Part shown: in pieces, positions 78-54,087 of the stretch
Numbering within the stretch: position 1 is the stretch's first letter
How the letters are laid out: each line of letters opens with the position of its first letter
NCBI GenBank assembly: GCA_000004985.1
Contig: GG738853.1
Length of the DNA stretch: 64,000 nt
Source: Naegleria gruberi
Taxonomy: Eukaryota
Direction: 5' to 3' (one strand)
Made by a program: the position numbers and the translations under genes
Notes under the pieces: generated by a model
Database searches by the model: none
What the model saw: the letters and a program-made list of their open reading frames with translations, nothing else
Told to the model about the DNA's origin: nothing

Positions 78-3000
78 ATGTCAGATGGTTCAACATTGAA
101 AAGTGGCATGTCATTCACATCAAATGGTTTATTTACATTTTATCCAAATCCATCACAAATTGGTCAATTTAATATATTAAGAAATGTATCATATTATAAT
201 AGTGATAACAAGTTTACAATAATTTCACACACCATTACAATTCAAGTAATTTCATCACCTTCCAATAATGGTAATCAATTACAATTATTATTTTCAGATA
301 ATTTCACATTTAATTTATCAAATTGGAATTTAATTGATGGAACAATGAAATTACAATCAAATCAATTAAATTTATTCCAAAATAATACAATTTTAACAAG
401 TGTTAAATATTTTGATATTTTTAATAATAATAATAATGGTTTAACTTTTACTTTTAATTTATTAACTTCATGGACTTCTACAAGAGGTATATTACTATAT
501 ATAGATAAATTGAATTATTATGAAATTAATTTATCAAATTCACCTTTAACTATTAAACGTTATTTAAATGGTGAATTAACAATTGTATTACAAAGTACTA
601 AATTATTACAAGTTCATACTTCAAATTATTATTCAAGTTATAAATTATTTTTACAATTTACTAAAAATGGAATTTTAATCAATTTGGCTAAAATTGGAAC
701 ATTATCAAGTGATTATTATTTAAATGTAATTGATAATTTTACTAATATGGAATTATTTAAAAATATTAAATTTGGATTTTTTGATAAAAGTGCATCTTCA
801 CCAACTGTGTCCACTTTTAAAGTTTTACAATTTCAAGTTTTTAATGGAAAATTAATTCACACCAGACAAGCACAAACTTATCATGTTGATGCAACTAATG
901 GAAATGATTTAAATGATGGGTTAACAAAATCAACTGCTTTAAAAACATTAAATACAGCTCAATATCAATTATTACCTGATGATACTTTACTAGTTTATGA
1001 TTCTATTTATAGAGAAAGTTTCCAAATTAATAGAGAAGCATCAATTTATCATCCAATTACAATTAAAGCAGTTAATCAACCAACTACTACAACTACCACA
1101 TTTACAACAACACCATATACTCATACATCAATTATTGATGGTTCACTTGTATTAGATAATTCTAAATTAACTAAAATTAGTAATAGTAACATTTATCAAA
1201 CCTATATTAAATTTACACCAGATGTAGTTTATTTAAATGGTGTGAAAATGAGTTTAGCAATGAAACCACTTCCAGCTGATTTACAAGATGAATATTTTAC
1301 AGATAATTATATTCATCCATTAAATAATTCAAAATTTCATCTGATAATTTATTAATTTATTTAAAATTAGATGAAATGTTTAAATATGATTCATTTGGTA
1401 ATAGAGTTTCAGATAATTATTGGAATGGTGCTGATTTATATCATTATTATTATGGAGCTAATATTGTTTTCACACGTAGAATTTTATCTTACAATGCATC
1501 AACCAATACTATTGGAATGGAATATAGAGATTCTATATGGGGACAATTAATTATTTCAACAAGTGATTTCTATGCTATTGGTAATCATGTTGGTTGTTTT
1601 TCACAAGCTAATCAATATGTTTCCTCTAATAATCAAATATCAGTTTCATTGAGTAGTGATCCATATTATATTCAATCTAATTCTCTATTATTAGAAGTAT
1701 CATCTCTCTCGAATGGTATTAAATTTACAAATGGAATGGAAGGTATTAGAGTTCAAGGATTAATGATTAGAAAATTCACAAGTGATGGAATTCAATGTTC
1801 TTCTCAATGTAATAATATTGTTCAACTAAATATAATGGTGGATCAGGTGTCAGTTTCACATCCTCTCAAAACATACTCATTGATGGAGGTGAACATTCAC
1901 AAAATTTCAATAATGGAATTAATTTTGGAGGTGGAATGAAAGATTCAACTATTGAAAATTCCTACGTTCATGAAAATGTCAATAATGGTATTTGGGTAGG
2001 TAATGGTGGTTCCAATCTATTCTATTGTTGGAATATTCTATTAAAATCTAATAAGGTTGGACCACATTTTAGTCAACGTCTCCATCCAGATAATATTCAA
2101 TTAGCTAGTTCACATAATGTAACATTAGATTCTAATATTCTCATTCAATCAGGTGGTGATCAAAATATGTGGATGGAACAAAATGGTCTCGTCACATTTA
2201 AAAGAAATATTTTCATTAATGGACCACTTGGTTTAAATCATGCATTGAATTTAGTATTAATTAATAATATATTTTATCAATCATGGATGAGATATTCATT
2301 TAAATTTGAAAATTATGTTACTTATAGTTCACTTGTTGGTTTACAAAGTGTTTTAGATTGGAATCAAATGTTTAATAGTTTAAATAGTAGTACTACTACC
2401 ATTAATGGAAATGATTTACCTAATATACTTGTTTGGAAAGATTTAAATTTACAAATATCAAATAGAATTAAATCATATTCATCTTTTAATTTATTAACTA
2501 ATTCAGATAAAAATGATTTAATTAATCATTTAAATAATATTATTAATAATACTTTATTTATGAAAGAACATAAAGATTTAGTATTACCTTTATTAGGAAA
2601 ATCAAATGTTGCATATCCATATTGGACTGCAATTACTAAACGTGGATTATTAGATAATTCAACAGGTCAATTCAATTTAATGACAAGTGACATTTCAATC
2701 ATTGAAGAAGTTAGAGGTTTAACACGTGCTATTTTAGATGAATTAGTTTTTGATGGAATTTTATCAAAATCTTTAATGACATTTTATCCAAGAATTGTTT
2801 CAATTAAGAATAATGCATTTATTAATTCAAATTTACAATTACCAAATTCATCTTATAGTTTATTACCATATTGGGATTCAGATTTTAATTATATTGAACA
2901 AGGAACACCTTATCATGCAAATATTTGGAAAACATTGACTGGACCTAATACTATATTTGAAACATCATTGACCAATACTACTTTCTATTTTAAGAATATG

Positions 3001-3336
3001 ACATTGTATGATTTCCATTTAAATTGTAATAATCAAAATATTTCATTAATTGATAGAGGAATTAATGTTGGTGAATTTTATAATGATAAAGCACCTGACA
3101 TTGGTGCCTATGAATCTAATTGTAATAATAATAATTTAAATCCACAACCATCATCAACAACAAAACCTTCAACATCTGTAAATTCACCACAACCATCAAA
3201 ATCACCACAACCAAATAATTCAAAAATTGTTTCACTTGGTTCATCAATTAATGTTGGAGGAGGTATTGGTAGTGGTTTAATATTGATTGGATGGATAATG
3301 GTGATGATGGTTGTTGTACTCAACACAATGTTTTAA
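78..3336 (+). CDS. Large Asn/Ser/Thr-rich surface protein with parallel beta-helix (PbH1-like) repeats and a C-terminal membrane anchor. It reads as three ORF segments (78-1355, 1376-1939, 1936-3336) in three frames, so it is a frameshifted pseudogene or carries base-call errors.
   Basis: Three co-oriented ORFs abut with no GT..AG candidates at the frame breaks (one break lies near 1813-1834). Repeats of the form G-I-x-x-N-x-x-I-x-N-N occur (NGGSGVSFTSSQNILIDGGEHSQNFNNGINFGGG, NGIWVGNGGSNLFY). A Ser/Pro/Thr linker precedes the hydrophobic tail GLILIGWIMVMMVVVLNTMF. Confidence 0.45.
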
Positions 3337-3704
3337 TAAATTTATTGTTCTAATCCAAAAATGTTTGATTTTCCACAAAAGTAAATACTAATAATTTAGA
3401 AATTTTGTAAAGTTAATCTCAATCAAGAAGTGTAATCTATGTTCATCCAATATATATGCCTAACCAATCAACAAGATTATCAATCTGATGATCATTCAAT
3501 AAGTATCTTCTCCACAATGTATGGTCACTTCAGGGTATCTATTGATTTTTTTTTCTTATTGGTTTATTTTATCAAAATTTCCAATAATAGACCACAGCCA
3601 TCTAAAAAGGATGATAATCTGTTTTTGTTCTTGAGAAAAAAACTGTTAAGCCGTCTCTTTGAAAACCAAATAGAAAAAAATCACATTATATTCTGTATCA
3701 TAAA

Positions 3705-5176
3705 ATGTCTGTCGTCGTTCCAAAGGATGTTCCTACATTGGGTATTTTAGTTGGTGGTGGTCCAGCCCCAGGTATGTATTCTGTGTTGTATTCATAAATA
3801 ATAATAGTTGTGATGATTTTAATGTCATGATGATGCTGATGTAAATTTAACCTTACATACAAAATTTTGATCATTTCTATTATGATGTATTTCCGTGATT
3901 CCTATGATGATTAATATTTCCTATTAACAATTGAATAATCATTTACATATCTTTTAATTTAGGTATTAACGGAGTTATCAGTTCTGTTACTATTGAAGCA
4001 ATTAATAATGGATATCGTGTTTTGGGATTCTTGGAAGGTTTTAATTATTTGATTGCTCAAGATGATTCTAAAATTGTTGAATTGACCATTGATGCAGTTT
4101 CTCGTATTCACTTTGAAGGTGGAAGTATTTTGAAGACTTCACGTGCTAATCCAACTAAGAAGGCTGAAGATTTGACCAAGTGTGTCAAACAATTACAAAA
4201 ATTCAATGTTTCTCTTTTAGTTACAATTGGTGGTGATGATACTGCATTCAGTAGTATGAGTATTGCTAAGGCTGCTAATAATGAAATTCACGTTTGTCAC
4301 GTTCCAAAGACTATTGATAACGATTTACCATTGCCATATGGTATTCCAACATTTGGTTATGAAACTGCTCGTGAATTTGGTGCTTCTGTTGTTCGTAGTT
4401 TAATGTCAGATGCTCAAACTGCTTCACGTTATTTCATTGTTGTTGCTATGGGTAGACAAGCTGGTCATTTGGCTTTGGGTATTGGTAAATCTGCTGGTGC
4501 TCATTTAACTTTAATTCCAGAAGAATTCACCAATGAAGCTGGTGAAATTCAAGTTACTTTTAAGAGAATTTGTGATCTTATTGAATCAAGTATTATTAAG
4601 AGATTAGCTTTGGGTAAAGATCATGGTGTCATTATCTTGGCTGAAGGTTTATTGGAATACATGTCAACTGAAGAATTGAAACAAGCATTCGGAAATCAAT
4701 TGAAATATGATGCTCACGATCACATTATGTTGGCTGAATTGGATTTCGGACGTCTTGTTCGTGATGAAATGAGAGATCGTGTCTCTAAACGTGGATTGAA
4801 ATTTGCTTTCACTGAAAAGAATTTGGGTTATGAATTGAGATGTGTTTCTCCAAATGCTTTTGATCGTGAATATACTCGTGATTTGGGTAATGGCGCTGCT
4901 CGTTATTTATTATCTGGTGGTAATGGTGCTTTGATTAGTGTTCAAGGTGATAAGATGGTTCCAATGAATTTCGAAGATTTGAAGAATCCAAAGACTGGTA
5001 AGACTCGTACTCGTCAAGTTGATATTAAGAGTGAAGGTTTCCAAGTTGCTAAGAGATATATGATTCGTTTGACTTCTAAGGATTTGAATGATCAAGAATT
5101 CCTTGCTCGTTTGGCTCAAGCTGCCAAGATGTCTGTAACTGAATTTGTTGAAACTTATGGATATTTGGTTCAATAA
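3705..5176 (+). CDS. 6-phosphofructokinase family enzyme of about 425 aa with the pyrophosphate-dependent (PPi-PFK) signature. Exons are 3705..3771 and 3963..5176.
   Basis: Exon 1 encodes MSVVVPKDVPTLGILVGGGPAPG and ends at a GTATGT donor. An AG acceptor at 3962 restores the frame into GINGVISSV. PFK motifs present are GGxxAPGxN, GGDDT (Asp where ATP-PFKs have GGDG), PKTIDNDL (Lys before TIDND where E. coli has G124) and MGR. Confidence 0.8.
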
Positions 5177-5312
5177 TTTGAATAACTTGTAAATAATAAT
5201 AATAATAACAATCAATAACATTTGAAACTCTCTTTTAATTCATAAATTGGTCAATCGATTAAGAACAATGAATCCAATTAAAAACGTTTTAAACAATTCA
5301 ACAGTTAGAAAA

Positions 5313-5322
5313 TTCCCGCCAT
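5313..5322 (+). promoter_or_regulatory. TTCCCGCCAT motif (E2F-like) about 35 bp upstream of the lin9 start codon
   Basis: A GC-rich decamer in roughly 90% AT DNA; the same decamer recurs at 8381 and 14318. Confidence 0.3.
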
Positions 5323-5353
5323 CCCGCAACCAAACTTTTGAAAAAATAAAAAA

Positions 5354-8300
5354 ATGCAAACAAACGAAGGCTCGGGATCAGAAATGTCTTCTTCCTCATC
5401 ATCAACATCATCCGCTGCCCAACAACAACTGCAGCAACAAGAACAACAATATAACGAACAAGGTGAAGATTTTCCTTCTCTTTTTATTCGTGCTGCTTCC
5501 TTCTCCTCTTCATCAGAGTCTGACGACATAATTCCTAATCATCAACAACATACCACCCAACCAATCAAAACATATGAATCCAAGATTAATTATGAACATC
5601 AAATGGTAATTGATAATGAAGAATCGGAATTAAACTTATCGCCAAGGAGAAGTTCTAGAAAGAAAACGCCAAAAAAACAATTCAGTCCAACCCACAAAGA
5701 GCAATCTGATAAAAAAACTACACCTTCTAAAATACAGATTCCACCATCACCAATACAATCACAAGTTATTCAACATGATTATCCATTTGGAGAACCTTGG
5801 ACACAAGAAGAACTTTCAACTTTTTTAGAAGGGTTCAACAAGTATAAAACTGATTGGGGTATGATCAAACCACTTTTACCAAGTAGAAGTGTTTCTATGA
5901 TTAATTCACTTTACGAAACTCACAAAAGATTTATTGAAGCAGACTGTGGTTTAGATGTGAAAAAATTACAATTTCATGATATTCACTTGGATTACATATC
6001 ATTCAAACAACAACAAATGATTCCATCTCCTCAACCACAACAATTCCAACAACTTCCACCACAACCTATTCCACCAAGAGCAAAGAATTCTGCTAGAAAA
6101 CGTTTGCAAGATGAATTTGATGCCATCTCATCACCTAAGAAGAAAGGTTCACCAAGACAACGTTTTTCAAAAACCTCTAAAATAATACCTACCACCAGTA
6201 ATTCAAATACCCTAATTCCAAACTTTAAAAGAAAACAAAAAATAATAATGGAACAATTACCACTTGAAGTAATTGAATCATTCCAATCAGATTCAGATAC
6301 TGTAACATTAACAAGCTCTCAAAGTTCTCTTTCTGTTTCAAATACTGAAAGTCAACCAACTTCACCACCTCCACCACAATCCCTTCAATCTCCATTATCA
6401 CCAACAAGTGATCTTTCCTCTTTCACAGCAGCTATTGGAATGTTATCACCTGATAGTAAAAAGAATTATGAAAAGAACAAAATGTTACCAATCAAACTAA
6501 GAAAGAAGGGTACTCACGGTAATCCTTTGCTAAAATATATTCAAATTGCTAATGGAGATCAAAATGATACAGAATTGTTAGAATCAGCTCAAAATGCTGG
6601 AATGAAAATTGTAAAAATACTATCAAGAAAGAAAACAAGAACATTTTGCTCAAGTGAATGGTTTTACCCAACGATAGACTTTGGATTTTTCGAAAAGAAT
6701 GAATTTTTGGAATGCTTATCTTGCTTGGATGAACCATATAGAAATAGAAAATCCTTTAAAAAATCAGAACTTAAAGGTTTAAGAGCAGAAATGTGTAAAA
6801 AGTTTGGTAAACCAAGAAGATTTTCTCAAGCTTATTTAAAACAAGAAAGAGCCAAGCTGGAAATGAATAGAAGTTTTGCTAGAGAATACTATCAAAAGTT
6901 TAAACAAGTATATCAACTCTCTCAAGATAATCAACCATTTGTTCCTCCTCCAGTCATTATGGACTACCCACTTGTATCTGAACTTCAATTTATTGAAAGA
7001 TTGGCTGCTCCATTTAAAAAGAACGATCAAGTTTTGGTTTTAAATCCAGAAACCCAACATGTACAACTTGCTACAATAATGGATGATATTCCTCATTCAA
7101 AAACAGATTATAGAGTTAAATTTTTATACACTAAAGAGGAACGTATAGTCCAAGATACAGAAATTATGCAATTAGGAACTGTTTCAGTATTACCAGTTCA
7201 AAGAAGAGTACCAGAAATGTTCAGACCTGTCATTCAAGATGGAATTCTCCCACCACAAACTCCACCAAGAAAAAGCAATTATAGTTTCCTCTCAGGTGAT
7301 AATAATTTGAACAATAGTATGTTATCTGCATCCTCACCACATTCCCCATTCTTTTCGAATAATCATCCAATTTTCCAAAGTCCTCCGTCATCAGCCAATG
7401 ATATTCATGATAATGGGGCTTCATTACAAACCCCAACAAAGAAACAAAAACTGGATGGTGGGTTAATGTCACCAAGTAATATATTTGCAAGTCCAAATAT
7501 GGAGAGTCATGAATTTTCTAATCCATTATCCTCTCCACAACACGGATTTGCTCAAAATCAACCACCTCCAGTTATGGCTACTGGTATTGTTGATCTTTCA
7601 AATCCATCTCAAGAAGTTGTTAGAAATATTTCCAAATGCATATTTTTATTAAGAAAGAAACATGAACACATGGTATTATTTAAAAATTTGAATGAAAAGG
7701 CGAGACATGCCATGATGAAACACTCTTTAGCTATGGCCTCATCTAATACATCAGAAGAAGGATCAAGCTCTTCTGTGACTCCAATAATATTTCAAAAATC
7801 ATTCTGTATTGAATATACCAAATTGGTACTTGATTTGAGTAAGATTAATAATGAATTGGAAGTTTTATTACCTCAAGTTAGAAGCTACAGTTCAACTCCA
7901 AATTATGCAACAACTAATTATCCTATCCATAGTATTTTTTCTCAATCAATCACAAAACAATCAACTTTCCTTTTCCAAAAACAAACAAATGGACCAGCAA
8001 GACAACAAATGTGTCAAGATATATTTGAGTCAAATAGAAATCATGCTAAAGATATTGTAAATTGTGTAATGGCTCAATTATTAACACAACTTCCATCCAC
8101 TACCTCTGAAAATGGTAAAACACTTTCATCAAATGTTATACAAACATGTCATGGAAAGATTGGAGATTGTATTGCTTTACTATTGCATTTAAGAGCTTGT
8201 AGTATTAATCTTGGTATTTTAGAAAATAATGATATTGATCTAATGCTTGATGCTGGTTTAATGGCATTGAAAGAACCAAATCAATCTGATGAAATATCTC

Positions 8301-8356
8301 AATATATTACTTTCATCAAGGATACTTTCTTGAGGACAAGAAATGATGAACAATAA
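5354..8356 (+). CDS. lin9: LIN9/ALY-type DIRP-domain protein (MuvB/DREAM complex subunit homolog) with an N-terminal Myb/SANT-like domain; 1000 aa
   Basis: The DIRP core SEWFYPTIDFGFFEKNEFLECLSCLDEPYRNRKSFKKSELKGLRAEMCKKFGKPRRFSQAYLKQERAKL aligns to human LIN9 EWFYSNID...GKPRRCSSAF..EER. The N-terminal WTQEELSTFLEGFNKYKTDWGMI is SANT-like, as in plant ALY proteins. Single long ORF. Confidence 0.7.
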   Translation: MQTNEGSGSEMSSSSSSTSSAAQQQLQQQEQQYNEQGEDFPSLFIRAASFSSSSESDDIIPNHQQHTTQPIKTYESKINYEHQMVIDNEESELNLSPRRSSRKKTPKKQFSPTHKEQSDKKTTPSKIQIPPSPIQSQVIQHDYPFGEPWTQEELSTFLEGFNKYKTDWGMIKPLLPSRSVSMINSLYETHKRFIEADCGLDVKKLQFHDIHLDYISFKQQQMIPSPQPQQFQQLPPQPIPPRAKNSARKRLQDEFDAISSPKKKGSPRQRFSKTSKIIPTTSNSNTLIPNFKRKQKIIMEQLPLEVIESFQSDSDTVTLTSSQSSLSVSNTESQPTSPPPPQSLQSPLSPTSDLSSFTAAIGMLSPDSKKNYEKNKMLPIKLRKKGTHGNPLLKYIQIANGDQNDTELLESAQNAGMKIVKILSRKKTRTFCSSEWFYPTIDFGFFEKNEFLECLSCLDEPYRNRKSFKKSELKGLRAEMCKKFGKPRRFSQAYLKQERAKLEMNRSFAREYYQKFKQVYQLSQDNQPFVPPPVIMDYPLVSELQFIERLAAPFKKNDQVLVLNPETQHVQLATIMDDIPHSKTDYRVKFLYTKEERIVQDTEIMQLGTVSVLPVQRRVPEMFRPVIQDGILPPQTPPRKSNYSFLSGDNNLNNSMLSASSPHSPFFSNNHPIFQSPPSSANDIHDNGASLQTPTKKQKLDGGLMSPSNIFASPNMESHEFSNPLSSPQHGFAQNQPPPVMATGIVDLSNPSQEVVRNISKCIFLLRKKHEHMVLFKNLNEKARHAMMKHSLAMASSNTSEEGSSSSVTPIIFQKSFCIEYTKLVLDLSKINNELEVLLPQVRSYSSTPNYATTNYPIHSIFSQSITKQSTFLFQKQTNGPARQQMCQDIFESNRNHAKDIVNCVMAQLLTQLPSTTSENGKTLSSNVIQTCHGKIGDCIALLLHLRACSINLGILENNDIDLMLDAGLMALKEPNQSDEISQYITFIKDTFLRTRNDEQ

Positions 8357-11110: not shown

Positions 11111-12299
11111 ATGTCTACTCCGACAATGACAGCAGAGTTTGACGATAGTCATTTAACTACGTTTAAATTTGGACAGTCTGATGCTCATATGCATGACTCA
11201 CTCGATCCTTCCCAATGGAAAATAACAGATTTTGAATTGTTAGAAATTATTGGTACTGGTACTTTTGGTAGTGTTAGATTAGTTAAACATAAACATACAC
11301 AACAATACTATGCTATGAAAATTATTAAAAAGTATGATGTAATTAGAATGAAACAAGTAGAACATATCATTAGTGAGAAGAATATTCTCTCTCAAGTTGA
11401 TCATCCTTTCATTGTTAGACTTTATAGAACATTCCAAGATGAAAATTATTTATTCATGATTATGGAATATGTGTGCGGAGGTGAATTGTTTTCACATTTG
11501 AGACGTGTTGGTAAATTCCCTAATGATGTTGCAAAGTTTTATGCTGCTGAAATTATTTTAGCTATGGAATATCTTCATATGAAGAATATTGTTTATCGTG
11601 ATTTGAAACCAGAAAATGTTTTATTAGATAATGATGGTCATGTAAAAATTACTGATTTTGGTTTTGCTAAGAAGGTTCTTGACCGTACGTGGACTTTATG
11701 TGGTACTCCTGAATATTTAGCGTAGGTTTTTATTAATCTCTTAATATTTAAATTACTCTTTAATCTCTTAATCATAATGATAATACTCTTAATCATTCTG
11801 ATAATCTAAATCATCTAATTATTTTATTATGAATAGTCCTGAAATTATTCAATCTAAGGGTCATGGTAAAGCTGTTGACTGGTGGGCATTAGGTATTCTT
11901 ATTTATGAAATGTTAGTTGGTTATCCACCATTCTTTGATGATTCACCTTTCAAAATTTATGAAAAGATTTTACAAGGAAAGGTTGAATTTCCAAGATTTA
12001 TGGATCCAATGGCTCGTGATTTAATTAAACGTCTCTTAACTACAGATAAGATGAAACGTTTGGGTAATTTGAAAGGAGGTGCTGCTGATATTAAGGAACA
12101 CAAATGGTTTAAGGGTGTTGATTGGGATGAATTATATAATAGACAAATTGCATCTCCAATTCCTGTCAAGATTAGTTTTGCAGGTGATTCTAGATACTTT
12201 GAAACTTATCCGGAATCTCAAGATCATTGTATTCACCACACTGGTACTCCACATCAACAATTATCTGCTGATGTTCAAGCTCTATTTGATGGTTTTTAA
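11111..12299 (+). CDS. AGC-family Ser/Thr kinase closest to the PKA catalytic subunit / PRKX. Exons are 11111..11721 and 11837..12299.
   Basis: [11 protein letters not shown]...[37 protein letters not shown]|[39 protein letters not shown] and C-terminal FETYPE. A GTAGGT donor at 11722 and an aatAG acceptor at 11836 rejoin the frame as GCT Ala. Alignment to human PRKX is close throughout. Confidence 0.85.
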
Positions 12300-13977
12300 T
12301 TTTTATTAAATGTATGTGAGAATACTGTATATACATCAAATAAAGTTATACATATTGTCACTGTACTTTTACTAAACAAGGTTTTAAACACTTGTTTCCA
12401 TTCATTTGTAAATAATGATTGAATAGTTTTCAAATCAATAACAATGTCAATAAAACACCAAAATCTAATCCATTCACAACCCCAATCTAATTCAATTGGA
12501 ATTCTAATGACTTGTTCCCTTGTTAATGATGGTGGTGAGGTTGGTGATGGTGATTCATCATGATTTTTATCATTATTCATTGTTTCATCTCCATTTGTTG
12601 TAGCAGTAGTAGTTGAATCATTTCCATTCACCGTCATTGTATCATCATTATTTTCATTATAATAAGAATTATCAAATTCAATTGACCATCTAGATCTAAA
12701 ACCAATACTAAATAAATATAATTGTTCATAAAATTTTGAAGTCATGTAATAAAATAGAGTATTATAAAATTTTCCATACGATTGAAATAAACCTCCAACA
12801 GAATGTTCAGCAGTTGCAACTTGTAAATCAATGAAATAACGTAAAATTTTAGAAATTTGAACAAGAATATTTCTACACTTGTTAATTAAATGAATAATTC
12901 TATTCAATTTTGATAAATAATTCATATTATTAGAATTTTTATAATTATTTAAAATTCTCAATTCAGGTAAAAGTTCATTATCTAAAATAGGAGGTGGTGG
13001 TAATTCAACTTTAGAAAAAACTTCTTGTTGATCATAATATTCTTTCCATTTTTGTAAAAATACTTGTTGTGAATTTTCTGAAAAAGGAGTCCATAATAAA
13101 CCTCTTTTTGTTAAAGAAATATTAAAATCATTTAATAAATTTGATCTAATTTGTAAACTATATCCTTTTATAGAAGTAGAAATTCCATAAATTAATTTTT
13201 TAAAATTATGAAAATTCATAATTGATAAACTTAAATATAAATATCTTGCTAAATAAGGAATATAAAATTTTCTTCTTAACATTAATTTAGTAATAAAATC
13301 TTTAATTTTCATTTGATATCCAAAATTAGTAGATAATTTATATTTACCAAAAATAAAACCAATATAATTAATTAAAATTAAATATAATTTTGATTTTTCA
13401 TTAAAAGGTTTATGTAAATGTAATTTAAATATACCATATATATATTTCATATCTAAATATTTAAATAATTTTTTAAAATAATTTTTAAAATAATTTATAT
13501 TTTTTTCATTTAATTTAATTTTATATTTAAATGTTTCTCTATTTGTATAATTTTCATTTCCAATATTAGAATTAAATGTATTATAAAAGGAAGTATATTG
13601 ATTATATTCTTCTTCTTGTTCTCTTTGCATTTCTTCAATATCATCATCTTGATAATAAATATTATTTCCATCTTTGGTAATATTATATATATCATAATGA
13701 TATTCACTTCCAATTGAATATCCTATTTTTTTATCTAATTGAATAAAACTTTATATATTTTATAATAATATTTAAAAATTATATTTAATTAATATTAAAA
13801 TTATATTTAATTAATATTATATTTAAATTAAAAAAAAACATACTTTATAGGTATTTGTAAATTATGAGTAGGATAACATCTCATTGAAATATCAAATGTA
13901 GCATATTCTAAATCCCATGGATGTGTATCTTCATAAGAATCCCAATTTAATGATGCATTTAATTTATATATTTCCAT
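12296..13977 (-). CDS. Hypothetical protein of about 529 aa. Exons on the minus strand are 13977..13844 and 13748..12296.
   Basis: ATG at 13977 (MEIYKLNASLNWDSYEDTHPWDLEYATFDISMRCYPTHNLQIPI), GTATGT donor, 95-nt AT-rich intron, taaAG acceptor, then the long ORF. The stop codon overlaps the stop codon of the convergent kinase gene. Confidence 0.5.
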
Positions 13978-23396: not shown

Positions 23397-25232
23397 ATGT
23401 TCAAATCAATTGCTCAACCAATTATCAAGAAGGCTAATCAAACAACACCAATTAAATCTGCTGTTGTTCAATCTAGATTCCTCAGCAAGGTTGTTAAAGA
23501 TGCCAAGACTGCTGTTCAAGATATTCCTGATGGTGCTACACTGTATGTATTAATATAATTTATTAATTTATTAATTTTTATAAATATATATTAATATTAA
23601 TATGATGATGATTGATCAATATGATGATGATATTACTATTATATTACAATCTATTATCTAAACACTCCCATAACCACTAAACTATAATCTAAAATCACAC
23701 CAATCTACTATTTAAACTACTTATCTACACTTAATCACACCAATCTAAATCACCAATCTACAATCTACAATCTACACTAAATCTACAATCTAAACACAAT
23801 GTAAAAACTCTCTTAATATTATTTAAATAGTTGTGTTGGTGGATTTGGTTTATCTGGTACACCACAAAAATTGATTGAAGCCTTGAGAGATTTGGGTAGT
23901 AAAAATTTAACAATTGTTTCAAATAATTGTGGTGTTGATGATTGGGGATTAGGATTATTATTATCTAATGGACAAATTAAAAGAATGGTTTCATCCTATG
24001 TTGGTGAAAATGCAACATTTGAAAAATTATATTTAGGAGGACATTTAGAAGTTGAATTACTTCCACAAGGTACATTAGCTGAAAAGTTAAGAGCTGGTGG
24101 TGCTGGTATTCCTGCATTCTTTACACCTACTGCTGTTGGTACTGTTATTCAAGAAGGTGGTTTTGCTATTAAATTTAAACCAAATTCAAAGGAAATTGAA
24201 ATTGCTTCTAAACCAAGAGAAGTTAGAGAATTTAATGGTAGAAAATATTTAATGGAAGAATGGATTAGAGGTGATTTTGCTTTAATTAAGGGATGGAAAG
24301 CTGATGAACATGGTAATGTTGTTTTTAGAAGAACTGCTAGAAATTTCAATCCAATGTGTGGTCAAGCTGGTAAAATTTGTATTGTTGAAGTTGAAGAATT
24401 AGTTAAACCAGGTGAAATTGATCCAGATCATGTTCATTTACCAGGTGTTTTTGTTGATAGAATTTATTTAGCTGAACCATATGAAAAGAGAATTGAAAAG
24501 AGAACTCTTTCTAAACCTACTGATGCTAATTCATCATCATCATCTTCTACTTCTTCAAATGATCCATCAAAATGGGATACACGTGAACGTATTGTTAGAA
24601 GAACTGCATTAGAATTCCAAGATGGAATGTATGTTAATTTAGGTATTGGTATTCCAACACTTGCATCCAATCATTTACCAAAAGGTGTTACCATTACTTT
24701 ACAATCTGAAAATGGTATTTTAGGTATGGGACCATATCCAACACCTGGTAATGAACATGCTGATTTGATTAATGCAGGTAAAGAAACAATTACAACATTA
24801 CCTGGATCATCAACATTTTCTTCATCTGATTCATTTGGTATTATTAGAGGTGGTCATATTGATTTGACTGTTTTGGGTGCTTTACAAGTATCTGAAAGTG
24901 GTGATTTAGCCAATTGGATTATTCCAGGTAAAATGGTTAAAGGTATGGGTGGTGCTATGGATTTAGTTTCATCTGGTTCACGTGTTGTTGTTACAATGGA
25001 ACATACTGCTAAGGGTAATTCTCCAAAGATTTTGAAATCATGTTCTTTACCTTTAACTGGTAAACAAGTTGTTAATAGAATTATTACTGAATTGGCTGTA
25101 TTTGATGTTACTCCACAAGGTTTAGTTTTAATTGAACATTTCCCTGGTGTTACTGTTGATGAAATTAAATCAAAGACTGAAGCTAACTTTATTGTTTCTG
25201 ATCAATTGAAGGAAATGCAATTTGTTCAATAA
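23397..25232 (+). CDS. oxct1: Succinyl-CoA:3-ketoacid CoA transferase (SCOT/OXCT), mitochondrial precursor. Exons are 23397..23542 and 23831..25232.
   Basis: Exon 1 is a presequence ([33 protein letters not shown]...DIPDGATL) followed by a GTATGT donor. Exon 2 ([21 protein letters not shown]...[15 protein letters not shown]...[12 protein letters not shown]...[12 protein letters not shown]) aligns along its length with human OXCT1. Confidence 0.85.
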
Positions 25233-42329: not shown

Positions 42330-43703
42330 TTAATTTCCTAATATTGTTGGTGATGATGATGGTAAATATAATTCAGGATAACAATTATTCATTCTCGCTC
42401 TCAATAATTCAATTGAATAGTTAAGTGAAAATCCATTTTGATAAATTGCTTGTAAAATCATTTCCTCTGAAATTCTATTTGATGGAATGTAACCTACTAC
42501 ATACTTTAATACGAATCCATTTCTCTTAATAGCTTCAAGAATAAACTCTTCATTAGTTCTCAATTTAGATTCAGTGAAGACTAATGCTCTTCCACTTAGA
42601 CTGAGTGCAGTTAGTGCAATTTCTAAATCCAATTTAAATTCAGTATTTGCAACACAACTTATCATTAAACCATCTCCTTGAACAGCTTTCAAAGCTAATT
42701 CTCTATCAGTCTTACGTAATTGAGATGAAACCCATTCATAAGCATATGGAGTTTTAGTGACAGCTGTCATTGCTATTTCTCTATCATTTTGTAATTCTGT
42801 TGATGCCTCAGAAAGAGCTGACCCTGTTTGTTGAATTGCTGCCATTACAACTTGTTTATCATTTTTCAATCTTTTAGAAGCAAATCTTAAAGCAAAAGGT
42901 TCTCCTCTGTTGATTGCCATTAATATCAAATCCTTATCATCCATTAATTTCAATGCAAATGGTGAAATAATTTCAAGAGTTTTATATGCATTCTTATTGA
43001 TTGCTTCCATTATAACATCTCTATCCTTCTTAAATTGATTACTTAAATAGGAAAGTGTTTTTACATTTCTGGAAACAACTTTTAAAACCATTGATTTTTC
43101 CTTTTTAAATTTTTTAGGTGCTTTTTGGATAACAACTGCATTTGATTCAATTGCTTTCAATATCATTTCATCATCATTACATTTCTTATAATTAATTTCC
43201 GGTTGAGTTTTGTCGATTTTTGAATTTTTAATTTCTAAATATCTTTCTAATAGAATTGGATCTTTAAATATAGAATAATTATATGATAAATAATTAACTT
43301 CAATTGCTTTGAATATGAATTCTCTATCATTTCTCAATGAATAACTTGCTTGTTCAAGTAAATAAGGACACTCTCTAATAAATTGTAACATTAAATTCGA
43401 ATCTCCATTAACATTCTCTAATGAATCGGCGATTGAATATTTTTTATGAATTATTACTTTAATCCAATAAAATTCCTTATCACCCATAAATTCAATCGGA
43501 GTAAATTCATCATTTTTAGAAAATTCCCATCGATTGGTTAAATATTTCATTTTGTAAAATTGTTGATTCCTAAATTTACATTTCAACAATTCAAGTAATT
43601 GCTCCAAAGATGATGAAACAATGGTATGATTATTCGAATCATCATGATCACTACTATATTGAATATTAACGTCAGAGAAATTTGGTTTCATTTTTTTTAA
43701 CAT
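42330..43703 (-). CDS. DUF4116-repeat protein, 457 aa
   Basis: Tandem repeats of about 36 aa of the type D(R/K)E(I/L)xL.A(I/V)..NG.aL.Y....L; paralogous to the gene at 50890. Confidence 0.55.
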   Translation of the reverse strand: MLKKMKPNFSDVNIQYSSDHDDSNNHTIVSSSLEQLLELLKCKFRNQQFYKMKYLTNRWEFSKNDEFTPIEFMGDKEFYWIKVIIHKKYSIADSLENVNGDSNLMLQFIRECPYLLEQASYSLRNDREFIFKAIEVNYLSYNYSIFKDPILLERYLEIKNSKIDKTQPEINYKKCNDDEMILKAIESNAVVIQKAPKKFKKEKSMVLKVVSRNVKTLSYLSNQFKKDRDVIMEAINKNAYKTLEIISPFALKLMDDKDLILMAINRGEPFALRFASKRLKNDKQVVMAAIQQTGSALSEASTELQNDREIAMTAVTKTPYAYEWVSSQLRKTDRELALKAVQGDGLMISCVANTEFKLDLEIALTALSLSGRALVFTESKLRTNEEFILEAIKRNGFVLKYVVGYIPSNRISEEMILQAIYQNGFSLNYSIELLRARMNNCYPELYLPSSSPTILGN

Positions 43704-46134: not shown

Positions 46135-46779
46135 ATGGTCTCCCATAACAACGCAGTCCCACAAAGCAAGTGGAAGAAGCAATGGACTAACAGAGTCAAA
46201 TTGTTCTTCGATGGTCCAGCTAAGGCTAAGAAGAGACAAGAATTGAGAATCAAGAAGGCTAAGAATGTCTTCCCAAGACCAACCGAATTGTTGAGACCTG
46301 TTGTCAGACTCTCCGGAAGAAGATATAACAGAAGAGTTGCTTTGGGTAGAGGTTTCTCTGTTGAAGAATTGAAGCAAGCTGGTATTCCACTCCAATTCGC
46401 AAAGACTGTTGGTATTGCTATTGACACCAGAAGAAAGGATTTGAGCGAAGAAAGACTCCAAGCTAACGTCCAAAGACTCCAAGAATACAAGCAAAGAGTT
46501 GTTTTGTTCCCAAGAAAGAAGGGTACCGTTAAGAAGGGTCCAATTGCTGATGCTCAAGTTGCTAAGGCTGAATCTCAAGTCAGAGGTACCGTCCTCCCAG
46601 TCAAGAGAGAAGTCGCTGTTGTTGAAACCAGAGATATTTCTGCTCAAGAAAAGGAATCATCAGCTGTTAAGTCTATTGTCAAGGCCAGAAAGTCCATCAA
46701 GCAATTCTCTTATCTCCAAAAGAAGAAGAATAAGGCTGTTGTTGCTACCCCAGCTGGTGCCGTTGTTGCTGACGAATAA
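46135..46779 (+). CDS. rpl13: 60S ribosomal protein L13 (eL13)
   Basis: Colinear with human RPL13 (…RPxxxLRPVVRxxxxRYNxRVxxGRGFSxEELKxAGI…QANVQRLxEYxxxxxLFPRK…). Confidence 0.9.
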   Translation: MVSHNNAVPQSKWKKQWTNRVKLFFDGPAKAKKRQELRIKKAKNVFPRPTELLRPVVRLSGRRYNRRVALGRGFSVEELKQAGIPLQFAKTVGIAIDTRRKDLSEERLQANVQRLQEYKQRVVLFPRKKGTVKKGPIADAQVAKAESQVRGTVLPVKREVAVVETRDISAQEKESSAVKSIVKARKSIKQFSYLQKKKNKAVVATPAGAVVADE

Positions 46780-50889: not shown

Positions 50890-53800
50890 ATGCCCAAACA
50901 TTCCTTCACTGATTTGTTAATTGTTGCAATAAGTGATGATCATCATACTTCCGATGATGATAATGATGATGAACATGATTGTGATAAATTAATATTTAAA
51001 CATTTTCAACAAATTTCCTCTGCCAGAATTGAAAAAAACAAATCAATTTATAAGCATCTATTATTATTAGAAAACCGATTAGAAACCATTTCCACATTCA
51101 TTGAAAAATATCCATTTCCTGATAATGATTGTAAATTGGCAATTTTTAAAGCAGTGAGTAAAAATGGATTATTTCTGGAAGCAGCTTCTGCAAATTTGAG
51201 AAATGATGAGGAAATTGTAATGAGAGCTGTTAAAAAAAATGTAAATGCTATAGAGTTTGTGAGTGAAGAATTGAGAAGTGATAGAGAATTTGTGAAGAGG
51301 ATGATTGTTTCTGCAAGGGAAAGACTTGGTGGTACTTGTAGCTTTTTCAAACATCTCGACAAATTTCATGACGATGAGGAAATTGTAAAAATGATGGTGA
51401 AGAAATTTGCCAATTCTCTAGAATTTGTATCTACACGATTGAAGAATGAGAGGGAAATTATTTTGGAGGCTGTTAAAAGGAGAGGTTCATCTATTAGATT
51501 TGTACCAGAACATTTGATCGATAGAGAGGTGGTGTTAATATCTGTGAAAAGTTTTTTTCTGGCACTGAAATATGTACCTTCAGAGTTTTTAAATGATAGA
51601 GAAATTCTCTCTGCTGCTATTGACTTTTCAGGAATTTCAATGCAATATGCATCTGATGAGATTAAGAGTGATAGAGAGTTTGTTCTAGAAATGGTAAAAT
51701 TGAAGGGTGATTGTTATTGTTATATAGCAGGCCATCTCAAACTTGATAGGGAAATAGCCATAGAAGCTATAAAGACAAGTTCACAAAGTTTAAGATATGC
51801 ACCTGATCATTTCAAAGATGATGATGAAATTGTTTCAATAGCAGTTAGAAAAGATTTGTCCATTGTTTCTGCTGCTTCACAGAGATTTAGAGATAATGCT
51901 GATTTTATCTATGATATGGCTTCATCAGCATCTCGAGTGCTTGATTATATTACAAATTGTAATTATCCTTTGGCTAACGATAGAGAATTTAATCTAAGAT
52001 TGGTAGAAAAATTTGCCAATTACAGTGAGGATATTAAATATGCACTAAATCACGGAATAGAAAAGGAACTTATTTTGAAATTAATAGAGATAGATCCTGA
52101 TTGCTTTGTAAAGGTACAGAGTGAGGATATTAAGAATGATAGAAAATTATTATTCGATTTATTACCACATGGGGAGGAAATTCTTGACCTAATTCCTGAG
52201 AGTTTGAGTAATGACAGAGAACTCATTCTAAGAGCTGTGAAAATTTATCCTATCGCTTTAAAGATGGCTTCCGAGGAGCTGCGTGCTGATAGAGATATTG
52301 CTGTTCAGGCATTAATGTGTAGTGTTGATAACTTTGAGTTTTTATCAGAGGAATTAAGAAGTGATGGAAAGATAATAGAGGACATTCTTATTAGGGATGC
52401 CTATGTGTTGCAATTTGCGCCAGAATCATTTGGAAATGATAGAGAAATAATAACAACAGCTATCAGAAACTCATTCTCTAATACTTATTCTTTTATAGGG
52501 TATGAACTAAAGGAGGATAGGGAGCTTATTTTAGACTATGTAAAGAGATGTGGATCTATTGAAAATATTCTTCAAGATTTTCGAAACGATAGGGAAATTG
52601 TACTAACAGCTATTCAACAAAATGGAAGTGAATTTCAGTACGCCTCCAAATCTCTACGTAGTGATAGAGAGCTAGCATTAATTGCCGTCAGAAACTCATG
52701 TTCTTTAGAGCATGTACTTGTGGAAAAATTCGATAGAGAGCTTGTTTATGAAGCTTGCAAAATTGAATCAGAAAATCTTGAATATGCTTCAGAGTTTAGA
52801 GATGATGAAGATATTGTTATGGTGGCAGCTTGTTCTGATACTGGTTCAAAGTTTTTCCAGTACGCAAGTGATCGATTGAGAAATAATAGAGATTTTGTTT
52901 TGAAGGTTGCAAAGGTAAATGCTGGAATCATTCGATACATTTCAGAAGAGCTTTGTCAAGATAGGGAAATTATCATGACTGCTGTTTCAGCTGATGGAAA
53001 GTTATTAAAACATGCATCAGAAGAATTGAAAGGCGATAGACAAGTTGTGGAAAAGGCAATCAATTCATATTCTCGTTCCTTGAAATTTGCTTCTGAATAT
53101 TTAAGAAAAGATCAAGAGTTATTTGAAAAAGCTATATCAAAAGAATTAACCTATTCTCTCGCCACAAATAAGGAAATGATGAACAAAATTGATGTGAAAA
53201 TAATAGAGAAATGTGTGGTTGAACAAGGATATTCACTTAGTTATGTACCTGATTCTGTAAAAAGGAATAGAAGTCTTGTTATTAAGGCTGTAAATGCTGA
53301 CATGGATAATATTTTACATGTGCCACACGAGTTGATTGACAAGGAATTCATTATGGAATTGTCTCCAGCCAAGTTCAATATATTATTACTTCCACTCAAA
53401 TGGAGAAGAGATAGAGATATAGTATTGAAGGCATTGGAAAGTAATGGAAAAACAATAGTTTACCTTTCAGAGGAATTTAAAAATGAATTTAAAAACAACA
53501 GGGAAATATTACTGAAAGCAATGAAAACTGACAGCATTCCTTTCATTTATGCAAGTGAAGAATTACAAAATGATAGAGAATTTGTTTTGGAATCTGTTGC
53601 AACAAATGGAAAGGTATTAAATCACGTACCACTTGAATATCAGCTAGACAGAGAAATTGTCTTGACAGCTGTCAAAAATGATGGAAATTCTATTGAATTT
53701 GGAGCCACTTGCTTCATGAAAGATAGAGAAATTATGTGGAATGTAGTTCAAAACTTTTTATCAGAGAAAAATACATCCAATCCACTTATTTATGGCTCAT

Positions 53801-54087
53801 TTGAAATACGAAGTGATAGAGAACTAGTTCTGGAAGCTGTTCGACATGATTACAACGCCCTAGACTATGCTGCTCAAGAATTGTTATGTGATGAAGAATT
53901 TATGACCCAATGTGTGGAAATTAACATTAACAGTCTAATGTATGCCCATTATCAATTAAGATTCAACATTGATTTCCTTAAACGATTGAACAAGACAGAA
54001 ATTATTAGTGAAACAACTGATTTACATGACTGTATTGATATTGAAGGACTATTAGGATATTATCCAAAGTTAAAAGGTTTAATTTAA
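50890..54087 (+). CDS. DUF4116-repeat protein, 1065 aa (about 25 tandem units)
   Basis: Repeats such as REIVMRAVKKNVNAIEFVSEELRSDREFVKRMI and REIILEAVKRRGSSIRFVPEHLIDREVVL; acidic N-terminus. Confidence 0.6.
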   Translation: MPKHSFTDLLIVAISDDHHTSDDDNDDEHDCDKLIFKHFQQISSARIEKNKSIYKHLLLLENRLETISTFIEKYPFPDNDCKLAIFKAVSKNGLFLEAASANLRNDEEIVMRAVKKNVNAIEFVSEELRSDREFVKRMIVSARERLGGTCSFFKHLDKFHDDEEIVKMMVKKFANSLEFVSTRLKNEREIILEAVKRRGSSIRFVPEHLIDREVVLISVKSFFLALKYVPSEFLNDREILSAAIDFSGISMQYASDEIKSDREFVLEMVKLKGDCYCYIAGHLKLDREIAIEAIKTSSQSLRYAPDHFKDDDEIVSIAVRKDLSIVSAASQRFRDNADFIYDMASSASRVLDYITNCNYPLANDREFNLRLVEKFANYSEDIKYALNHGIEKELILKLIEIDPDCFVKVQSEDIKNDRKLLFDLLPHGEEILDLIPESLSNDRELILRAVKIYPIALKMASEELRADRDIAVQALMCSVDNFEFLSEELRSDGKIIEDILIRDAYVLQFAPESFGNDREIITTAIRNSFSNTYSFIGYELKEDRELILDYVKRCGSIENILQDFRNDREIVLTAIQQNGSEFQYASKSLRSDRELALIAVRNSCSLEHVLVEKFDRELVYEACKIESENLEYASEFRDDEDIVMVAACSDTGSKFFQYASDRLRNNRDFVLKVAKVNAGIIRYISEELCQDREIIMTAVSADGKLLKHASEELKGDRQVVEKAINSYSRSLKFASEYLRKDQELFEKAISKELTYSLATNKEMMNKIDVKIIEKCVVEQGYSLSYVPDSVKRNRSLVIKAVNADMDNILHVPHELIDKEFIMELSPAKFNILLLPLKWRRDRDIVLKALESNGKTIVYLSEEFKNEFKNNREILLKAMKTDSIPFIYASEELQNDREFVLESVATNGKVLNHVPLEYQLDREIVLTAVKNDGNSIEFGATCFMKDREIMWNVVQNFLSEKNTSNPLIYGSFEIRSDRELVLEAVRHDYNALDYAAQELLCDEEFMTQCVEININSLMYAHYQLRFNIDFLKRLNKTEIISETTDLHDCIDIEGLLGYYPKLKGLI

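What the first reader, a model, noticed from the sequence alone, without database searches (positions are those of the whole stretch)
3705..5176. Short phosphofructokinase with the PPi-dependent signature (GGDD + K-TIDND)
The sequence shows GGDDT where ATP-PFKs have GGDG (E. coli G104), and Lys immediately before TIDND (E. coli G124). Those two substitutions are the established determinants of pyrophosphate rather than ATP use in the PFK family (Entamoeba and Propionibacterium PPi-PFKs). The protein is about 425 aa, the short-form PFK size, not the 800-aa eukaryotic ATP-PFK. A PPi-PFK in a dictyostelid would mean a PPi-linked, reversible glycolytic step alongside the canonical ATP enzyme.
Basis: partly seen in the sequence, partly recalled or inferred. 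Interest (0 to 1): 0.55.

Follow-up and report, generated by a model that had tools for sequence, protein, structure and literature searches.

The report
Naegleria gruberi pyrophosphate-dependent phosphofructokinase gene
This is the already annotated pyrophosphate-dependent phosphofructokinase gene of the amoeboflagellate Naegleria gruberi (not a dictyostelid), the orthologue of a Naegleria fowleri enzyme characterised in 1993, so the finding is correct in substance but ordinary.

Summary
A two-exon gene (3705-3771 and 3963-5176, + strand, with a 191-nt GT..AG intron) encodes a 426-aa PFK-family protein. It has GGDD at residues 112-115 and K138-TIDND at 138-143. These align with E. coli PfkA G104 and G124.

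The organism is wrong. The spliced protein is residue-for-residue identical to XP_002680445.1/EFC47701.1, [quoted passage not shown]. A second gene in the window (RPL13e) is an exact N. gruberi NEG-M protein on the same 695-kb contig.

The protein is 82% identical to N. fowleri Q27705, which the literature reports as a PPi-dependent, AMP-activated PFK. It passes the curated cut-off of the NCBIfam PPi-PFK equivalog NF041103 (586.7 against 550 bits) and fails every ATP-PFK and long PPi-PFK model. Its closest solved structure is Trichomonas vaginalis PPi-PFK (9DQM), and every PPi-contacting residue named for that structure is retained.

The literature describes heterolobosean glycolysis as using this enzyme instead of a classical ATP-PFK, not alongside one.

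Verdict: a real PPi-PFK, already known and annotated. Interest is low.

The parts
3705..3771 (+). Exon 1 of the PPi-PFK gene (codons 1-22 plus the first base of Gly23). It encodes MSVVVPKDVPTLGILVGGGPAP(G), including the GGG phosphate-binding loop (G17-G19).
   Evidence: The spliced product is identical to XP_002680445.1. The N-terminus aligns without a gap across the junction with N. fowleri Q27705, whose sequence was, to my knowledge, derived from cDNA.
3772..3962 (+). Spliceosomal intron: 191 nt, GT..AG, phase 1, inside the Gly23 codon of GGGPAP|GING.
   Evidence: 23% GC and stops in all frames (one search shows the exon-1 frame terminating at 3797). There is an intron at the same place in an environmental Naegleria contig (L004, phase 1) and in Willaertia magna (L003, 39 nt, phase 0). 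There is none in Acrasis kona (L005).
3963..5176 (+). Exon 2 (remainder of Gly23 to Q426, plus the TAA stop). It carries GGDD (aa 112-115, nt 4228-4239), K138-TIDND (aa 138-143, nt 4306-4323), the MGR motif (M185-R187), E250, Y312 and R315, and the C-terminal helical extension typical of the Naegleria/Trichomonas short PPi-PFKs.
   Evidence: The alignment to 9DQM spans residues 8-424.

Best explanation
[quoted passage not shown] This is a short (426 aa) PFK-superfamily enzyme of the Naegleria / Trichomonas / Thermotoga type.

Shown by alignment:
- The fold and the catalytic machinery of PFK are intact. The general base is D141 (E. coli D127). Also retained are T139, D143, the Mg2+ ligand D114, R83, the F6P ligands R178, M185, R187, E250 and R315, and Y312.
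- The nucleotide site carries the PPi-type residues. D115 takes the place of the GGDG glycine. S119 takes the place of G108. K138 precedes TIDND.

Inferred from solved PPi-PFK structures, as reported in the literature: D115 occupies the position of the ATP alpha-phosphate. [quoted passage not shown] K138 salt-bridges the PPi phosphate.

Inferred from the N. fowleri orthologue and from thermodynamics: the enzyme uses PPi and runs near equilibrium, so it is reversible. It serves as the main or only glycolytic PFK of the amoeba and saves one ATP per hexose. It is probably a tetramer activated by AMP, like the N. fowleri enzyme.
For: - Exact identity of the spliced product to EFC47701.1/XP_002680445.1/UniRef100_D2V5S2, 'pyrophosphate-dependent phosphofructo-1-kinase [Naegleria gruberi]'.
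- 82% identity over the full length to N. fowleri Q27705. The literature reports that enzyme as purified, PPi-dependent and AMP-activated (Mertens et al. 1993, as cited in PMC12203962, and in bioRxiv 10.1101/469072).
- NCBIfam NF041103, a PPi-PFK equivalog, scores 586.7 bits against a cut-off of 550, aligned end to end (12-423 onto 1-407 of 407).
- The best PDB match is T. vaginalis PPi-PFK 9DQM, E=1e-121.
- Every PPi-contacting residue listed for TvPPi-PFK (G14, G15, R83, G113, D115, T116, K139), plus D114 and D142, is conserved in N. gruberi.
- The E. coli G104, G108 and G124 equivalents are D, S and K, matching the signatures reviewed in PMC12203962.
- The gene looks native. It has a spliceosomal intron conserved in Naegleria and Willaertia, and its GC (36%) and GC3 (21%) fall within the range of neighbouring genes.
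Against: - No enzyme assay exists for the N. gruberi protein itself in anything I could read. Donor specificity is inferred from the orthologue and from signature residues.
- The K-TIDND lysine alone is not diagnostic, because the ATP-dependent T. brucei PFK has it.
- The primary biochemical paper (Mertens 1993, PMC1134184) was not available to read, so its results are taken second-hand from reviews.
- Absence of an ATP-PFK from the N. gruberi genome was not tested here. It rests on a literature statement.
Confidence: 0.95

Rival explanations
1. It is an ATP-dependent or dual-specificity short PFK that merely retains PPi-like residues. Donor switches have occurred repeatedly in this superfamily, for example in T. 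brucei PFK within a PPi-PFK clade.
For: The literature documents frequent phospho-donor changes and shows that the Lys motif is not diagnostic (PMC9512073; PMC12203962). No direct assay of the N. gruberi protein was found.
Against: Known switched enzymes have GGDG. This protein has GGDD plus Ser at the G108 position. It is 82% identical to an enzyme shown to be PPi-dependent. All ATP-PFK NCBIfam models score far below their cut-offs: PRK03202 193 against 253, TIGR02482 129 against 371, PRK06830 146 against 400.
Confidence: 0.03
2. One reading: a dictyostelid genome carries an unexpected PPi-PFK as a second, reversible PFK next to the canonical ~800-aa ATP-PFK.
For: Only the composition of the window fits (28.6% GC; Q/N/S-rich ORFs), and this superficially resembles Dictyostelium.
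Against: There are exact protein matches to N. gruberi NEG-M for two genes of the window, both on one 695,587-bp contig, with accessions nine apart: EFC47701 and EFC47710. All close homologues are heteroloboseans: Naegleria, Willaertia and Acrasis. No dictyostelid appears among the 120 best hits. The literature describes PPi-PFK as replacing the ATP enzyme in this lineage, not accompanying it.
Confidence: 0
3. The gene is a recent bacterial transfer or a contaminant, not a native eukaryotic gene.
For: Outside the Heterolobosea, named bacterial proteins (Acidobacteriota/Blastocatellia, Ignavibacteriota, Kiritimatiellae) are 50-55% identical by BLASTP. T. vaginalis is 49% identical by a different measure, MAFFT. 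The matching NCBIfam model is named for Thermotogales. The literature treats PFK phylogeny as shaped by lateral transfer.
Against: The gene has a canonical spliceosomal intron, conserved in position in Willaertia and in another Naegleria. It has AT-rich, host-like codon usage (GC3 0.21). It sits between ordinary eukaryotic genes such as DIRP/Myb and a protein kinase. Orthologues are present across Naegleria, Willaertia and Acrasis. Any transfer must therefore predate the divergence of these heteroloboseans.
Confidence: 0.02

Closest known systems
Naegleria gruberi NEG-M XP_002680445.1 / EFC47701.1 / UniRef100_D2V5S2 (annotated pyrophosphate-dependent phosphofructo-1-kinase)
   Same: Identical over all 426 residues, which means the same gene model, including the 3772-3962 intron.
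   Different: Nothing. It is the same gene.
Naegleria fowleri PPi-PFK, UniProt Q27705 (AAA85791.1). Purified and characterised by Mertens et al. 1993; cloned by Wessberg et al. 1995 (the latter from my own knowledge).
   Same: 82% identity. The same GGDD, S and PKTIDND residues and the same F6P residues. The same C-terminal extension ending in YLVQ.
   Different: N. fowleri has 8 extra N-terminal residues and a slightly longer insert after IPEEF (437 against 426 aa). PPi dependence, a Km for F6P of 0.01 mM and AMP activation were measured for N. fowleri only.
Trichomonas vaginalis PPi-PFK1 (UniProt A2DXT4; PDB 9DQM, 9MDT, 9MEA, 9MEC, 9MED, 9MF6)
   Same: Same short architecture (426 aa). Alignable end to end, E=1e-121. 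All PPi, Mg and catalytic residues are conserved.
   Different: Only 49% identity. Four of the seven residues that hold AMP at the Tv dimer interface are replaced in Naegleria: R33 to N37, Y65 to I65, Y236 to L239, W386 to I390.
NCBIfam NF041103 PFKA_PPi_Ttgales (Thermotogales-type PPi-PFK equivalog)
   Same: Scores above the curated cut-off over the full model length.
   Different: The model was built to name bacterial proteins. This member is eukaryotic and contains an intron.
E. coli PfkA / bacterial ATP-PFK (PDB 1PFK)
   Same: Same fold. The catalytic Asp, the TIDND motif, MGR and the F6P arginines are shared.
   Different: 27% identity. GGDG becomes GGDD, G108 becomes S, G124 becomes K and H249 becomes Y. 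There are about 100 extra residues (an insert after E250 and a C-terminal extension). The donor is PPi rather than ATP.
Long PPi-PFKs (Borrelia burgdorferi 1KZH, Entamoeba histolytica, plant PFP; TIGR02477)
   Same: The same donor-specificity signature, GGDD with PKTIDXD.
   Different: A different clade. TIGR02477 scores 148 bits against a cut-off of 588, and only residues 11-262 align. This protein lacks the ~550-aa architecture with its inserted helical domain.

Membership tests
Phosphofructokinase superfamily (Pfam PF00365) | Full-length PFK domain above the gathering score | tested here: met
   183.9 bits against a cut-off of 30.9. Residues 12-336 match profile positions 2-275 of 277.
Phosphofructokinase superfamily (Pfam PF00365) | Catalytic and F6P-binding residues (E. 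coli D103, T125, D127, D129, R72, R162, M169, R171, E222, R252) | tested here: met
   D114, T139, D141, D143, R83, R178, M185, R187, E250 and R315 are all conserved in the MAFFT alignment.
Short PPi-PFK of the Naegleria/Trichomonas/Thermotoga type (NCBIfam NF041103, EC 2.7.1.90) | Score above the curated equivalog cut-off, end to end | tested here: met
   586.7 bits against 550. Residues 12-423 match 1-407 of 407.
Short PPi-PFK of the Naegleria/Trichomonas/Thermotoga type (NCBIfam NF041103, EC 2.7.1.90) | GGDD instead of GGDG (Asp at E. coli G104) | tested here: met
   D115. The signature is as reviewed in PMC12203962.
Short PPi-PFK of the Naegleria/Trichomonas/Thermotoga type (NCBIfam NF041103, EC 2.7.1.90) | PKTIDXD (Lys at E. 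coli G124) | tested here: met
   P137-K138-TIDND. Supportive only, since T. brucei ATP-PFK also has this Lys.
Short PPi-PFK of the Naegleria/Trichomonas/Thermotoga type (NCBIfam NF041103, EC 2.7.1.90) | A residue larger than Gly at E. coli G108 (the B. burgdorferi N181 position), which blocks adenine | tested here: met
   S119, conserved in all heterolobosean sequences and in T. vaginalis. The criterion comes from PMC12203962.
Short PPi-PFK of the Naegleria/Trichomonas/Thermotoga type (NCBIfam NF041103, EC 2.7.1.90) | PPi-dependent, reversible phosphorylation of F6P, measured in vitro | not testable with these tools
   Reported for the 82%-identical N. fowleri enzyme (Mertens 1993). Not measured for N. 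gruberi in anything I could read.
Naegleria-type AMP-activated PPi-PFK | Activation by AMP | not testable with these tools
   Known for N. fowleri only. The AMP pocket seen in TvPPi-PFK is only partly conserved.
Bacterial ATP-PFK (TIGR02482 / PRK03202 / PRK06830 / PRK14071) | Score above the curated cut-off, and a GGDG motif | tested here: not met
   Scores of 128.7 against 371, 193 against 253, 145.6 against 400 and 98.4 against 544. The motif is GGDD, not GGDG.
Eukaryotic long ATP-PFK (TIGR02478) | A ~750-800 aa tandem-duplicated architecture above cut-off | tested here: not met
   98.6 bits against 708.4. The protein is 426 aa with a single PFK domain.
Long PPi-PFK / plant PFP type (TIGR02477, PRK07085) | Score above the curated cut-off | tested here: not met
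   148.4 against 588 and 164.3 against 446.

The most novel reading that the evidence does not exclude
The AMP activation known for the Naegleria PPi-PFK may work through a site that differs from the AMP pocket recently seen at the dimer interface of the T. vaginalis enzyme. The stacking Trp386, Arg33, Tyr65 and Tyr236 of that pocket are Ile, Asn, Ile and Leu/Ser/His/Lys in all heterolobosean sequences. If so, the N. gruberi protein would be a tractable, non-pathogenic model for locating a distinct allosteric site. This is a side issue. The gene itself is not novel.
Probability: 0.3. Interest if true: 0.3.

Novelty: already known. Interest (0 to 1): 0.08.

Why it matters
It matters little as a discovery. 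PPi-linked glycolysis in Naegleria has been known since 1993, and this exact gene has carried the annotation 'pyrophosphate-dependent phosphofructo-1-kinase' since the N. gruberi genome was deposited. The practical value is twofold. It corrects the taxonomic assumption for this window: it is Heterolobosea, not Dictyostelia, and that should be carried over to every other finding from the same window. It also shows that the sequence-only reading of the GGDD and K-TIDND signature was sound. PPi-PFK is absent from mammals and has been discussed as a drug target in T. vaginalis. The non-pathogenic N. gruberi orthologue, 82% identical to the N. fowleri enzyme, is a convenient surrogate for such work.

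Tried and rejected
- Rfam scan of the whole window: no RNA family, so no rRNA or tRNA marker for taxonomy.
- The look-up of encoding contigs with the spliced 426-aa product: not on record. The gene-position index holds only the prokaryote-style 384-aa ORF (P0001) from a metagenome. Direct DNA identity of the window to the NCBI N. gruberi scaffold could therefore not be shown. Exact protein look-ups of two genes were used instead.
- Exact look-up of two further ORFs (5354-8353 and 42333-43703): not in the collection. The annotated models probably differ through introns or start codons, so this is not evidence against N. gruberi.
- Mertens et al. 1993 (PMC1134184) is not held. Opperdoes et al. 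2011 and Wessberg et al. 1995 are not in the library. Their content is taken from citing papers or from my own knowledge and is marked as such.
- Dictyostelid origin was considered and rejected.
- A recent bacterial transfer or a contaminant was considered and rejected, given the conserved intron, host-like codon usage and eukaryotic neighbours.
- No structure prediction was run. A solved structure at E=1e-121 already covers residues 8-424.

Full report
**1. What is in the sequence**

An ATG at 3705 opens a 67-nt exon that ends at 3771. A 191-nt GT..AG intron follows (3772-3962; GTATGT...TTTAG; 23% GC against 36% for the coding sequence). A second exon runs from 3963 to the TAA ending at 5176. 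Spliced, the reading frame is 1281 nt and encodes 426 aa. The unspliced exon-1 frame hits a stop at 3797, and the longest uninterrupted ORF is only 384 aa, starting at an internal TTG at 4022. The protein contains GGDD at residues 112-115, followed by Thr, and TIDND at 139-143, preceded by Pro137-Lys138.

**2.

- Pfam PF00365 matches residues 12-336 at E=5e-54.
- I recalled the E. coli PfkA sequence and verified it as 320/320 identical to PDB 1PFK.
- I then aligned it with the window protein, four heterolobosean homologues and T. vaginalis PPi-PFK.
- In the classical Met-less E. coli numbering, G104 aligns with D115, G124 with K138 and G108 with S119.
- The catalytic and substrate residues are all kept: D103/D114, T125/T139, D127/D141 (the general base), D129/D143, R72/R83, R162/R178, M169/M185, R171/R187, E222/E250 and R252/R315. 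H249 is Tyr (Y312).
- A recent review of the superfamily (PMC12203962) states three points. [quoted passage not shown] PKTIDXD is a PPi-PFK motif, but it is not diagnostic on its own, because the ATP-dependent T. brucei PFK also has the Lys. The G108-equivalent residue is always larger than Gly in PPi-PFKs.
- The window protein has the PPi-type residue at all three of these positions.

**3. Which gene and which organism**

- An exact-sequence look-up of the spliced 426-aa product returned EFC47701.1 / XP_002680445.1 / UniRef100_D2V5S2, 'pyrophosphate-dependent phosphofructo-1-kinase [Naegleria gruberi]', on a 695,587-bp contig.
- A second ORF of the window, ribosomal protein L13e at 46135-46776, is an exact match to EFC47710.1 / XP_002680454.1 of N. 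gruberi NEG-M on the same contig. The accession is nine higher than that of the PFK, which agrees with the gene order in the window.
- The window is therefore N. gruberi NEG-M (Heterolobosea, Discoba), not a dictyostelid.
- The low GC (28.6%) and the Q/N/S-rich ORFs that probably suggested Dictyostelium are also features of this genome.
- The homology search tells the same story. After the self-hit come N. fowleri Q27705 (82%), two Willaertia magna paralogues (75% and 72%) and Acrasis kona (67%). Unnamed environmental sequences follow, and then bacterial proteins (Acidobacteriota, Ignavibacteriota, Kiritimatiellae) at about 50-58%.
- No dictyostelid is among the 120 best hits.

**4. Family assignment**

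- The NCBIfam equivalog NF041103 (PFKA_PPi_Ttgales, diphosphate--fructose-6-phosphate 1-phosphotransferase) scores 586.7 bits against a curated cut-off of 550, aligned end to end.
- Every other PFK model scores far below its cut-off. These are the bacterial ATP-PFKs (TIGR02482, PRK03202, PRK06830, PRK14071), the eukaryotic long ATP-PFK (TIGR02478), the long PPi-PFKs (TIGR02477, PRK07085), the 'mixed' group (TIGR02483) and the PPi models PRK14072 and PRK06555.
- The best solved structure by far is T. vaginalis PPi-PFK1 (9DQM and five further entries), at E=1e-121 over residues 8-424. The next matches are ATP-PFKs at about 1e-31.
- The TvPPi-PFK structure paper (bioRxiv 10.64898/2026.03.28.715000) lists G14, G15, R83, G113, D115, T116 and K139 as PPi contacts. 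It gives D114 as the Mg2+ ligand and describes D142 as a proton donor; D142 aligns with the E. coli general base D127.
- All of these residues are conserved in N. gruberi.

**5. How it works**

Shown here: an intact PFK active site with the complete PPi-type donor pocket.

Inferred from the orthologue and from established biochemistry:
- The enzyme transfers phosphate from PPi to the 1-OH of fructose 6-phosphate.
- D141 acts as the general base.
- D115 excludes ATP and sets the register of PPi.
- K138 binds the PPi phosphate.
- The reaction is close to equilibrium and reversible.

The N. fowleri orthologue is reported as PPi-dependent, with a very low Km for F6P (0.01 mM) and activation by AMP (Mertens et al. 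1993, as cited in PMC12203962, and in 10.1101/469072).

On its physiological place, PMC7285305 cites Opperdoes et al. 2011 for N. gruberi. I could not scan the whole genome for an ATP-PFK myself. The N. fowleri glucokinase paper still leaves open the formal possibility of an undetected ATP-PFK.

**6. The intron and whether the gene is native**

- The intron lies inside the GGGPAP|GING motif.
- An environmental Naegleria contig (L004, 82% protein identity) has an intron at the same phase-1 position.
- W. magna (L003) has a 39-nt intron one base upstream, in phase 0.
- A. kona (L005) has none.
- Several metagenome ORF calls for Naegleria-like PFKs start at the same internal [M/L]GF[L/V]EGF position (P0001, P0004, P0005), which is what this intron would cause.
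- The N. fowleri protein sequence runs uninterrupted through the junction.
- The CDS composition (GC 0.36, GC3 0.21) is within the range of its neighbours.
- The flanking genes are ordinary eukaryotic ones: a DIRP/LIN9-Myb protein immediately downstream, a protein kinase, LRR, PDE, MCM, the RNR small subunit, RPL13e and others.
- The gene is therefore a long-resident heterolobosean gene. The bacterial affinities of the clade are old and fit the lateral-transfer history of PFKs described in the literature.

**7. Novelty and verdict**

The gene, its exon structure and its function are already annotated, and the orthologous enzyme was characterised three decades ago. The host assignment and the metabolic framing were wrong. 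Interest is low (0.08) and novelty is 'already known'.

**8. One side observation**

Four of the seven residues that hold AMP at the T. vaginalis dimer interface are replaced in all five heterolobosean sequences: R33 to N, Y65 to I, Y236 to L/S/H/K and W386 to I. Yet it is the Naegleria enzyme for which AMP activation was reported. The allosteric AMP site of the Naegleria enzyme may therefore not be the pocket seen in 9DQM. This is unexplored and of modest interest.

**9. What did not work**

- Rfam found nothing in the window.
- The spliced product is not in the gene-position index.
- Two other ORFs gave no exact match.
- The primary 1993 paper could not be read.

Noticed in passing
window 46135-46779 (+): A single-exon ORF for ribosomal protein L13e. 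It is an exact match to N. gruberi NEG-M XP_002680454.1, on the same 695,587-bp contig as the PFK. This settles the origin of the whole window as Naegleria gruberi, not a dictyostelid, and should be applied to other findings from this window.
   Followed up: yes
window protein residues I36, N37, I65, K235, L239, M389, I390 (nt about 4001-5068): The AMP pocket seen in T. vaginalis PPi-PFK structures (L32, R33, Y65, K232, Y236, M385, W386) is only partly conserved. R33, Y65, Y236 and the adenine-stacking W386 are replaced in Naegleria, Willaertia and Acrasis, although the N. fowleri enzyme is the one reported as AMP-activated.
   Followed up: partly
window 3772-3962; L003 3001-4314; L004 1-420; L005 3001-4281: The intron in the GGGPAP|GING motif is conserved in an environmental Naegleria (phase 1). 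In Willaertia magna it is shifted by one base (39 nt, phase 0). It is absent from Acrasis kona.
   Followed up: yes
window 3319-6529 against L001 (ENA ERZ929261 / ERR1078381, contig k127_198647): A 3.2-kb contig from a public 'metagenome' run is 98.8% identical to the window (10 mismatches, 8 gaps) and encodes an identical PFK exon 2. N. gruberi-like DNA from a slightly different strain is therefore present in that sample.
   Followed up: partly
window 42330-43703 (-) and 50890-54087 (+): Two proteins are built almost entirely of DUF4116 repeats: 7 repeats in one and 22 in the other (624 bits). Their function is unknown.
   Followed up: no
window 5354-8356 (+): Immediately downstream of the PFK lies a 1000-aa ORF with a Myb-like domain (aa 147-190) and a DIRP domain (aa 436-527). 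It looks like a LIN9/Mip130-type DREAM-complex subunit. The exact ORF translation is not in the protein collection, so the annotated model probably differs.
   Followed up: partly
window 23871-25232 (+): A CoA-transferase (PF01144, 375 bits, both halves). The ORF starts at a TTG, so an upstream exon is likely. It may be a succinyl-CoA:3-oxoacid or acetate:succinate CoA-transferase, which would be relevant to Naegleria's lipid-based energy metabolism.
   Followed up: no
window 78-1355 (+), 1936-3336 (+), 12296-13630 (-): Long ORFs with very low GC (20-26%) and no Pfam match. ORF 1936-3336 ends in an S/P-rich stretch followed by a hydrophobic tail, which suggests a surface-anchored protein.
   Followed up: no
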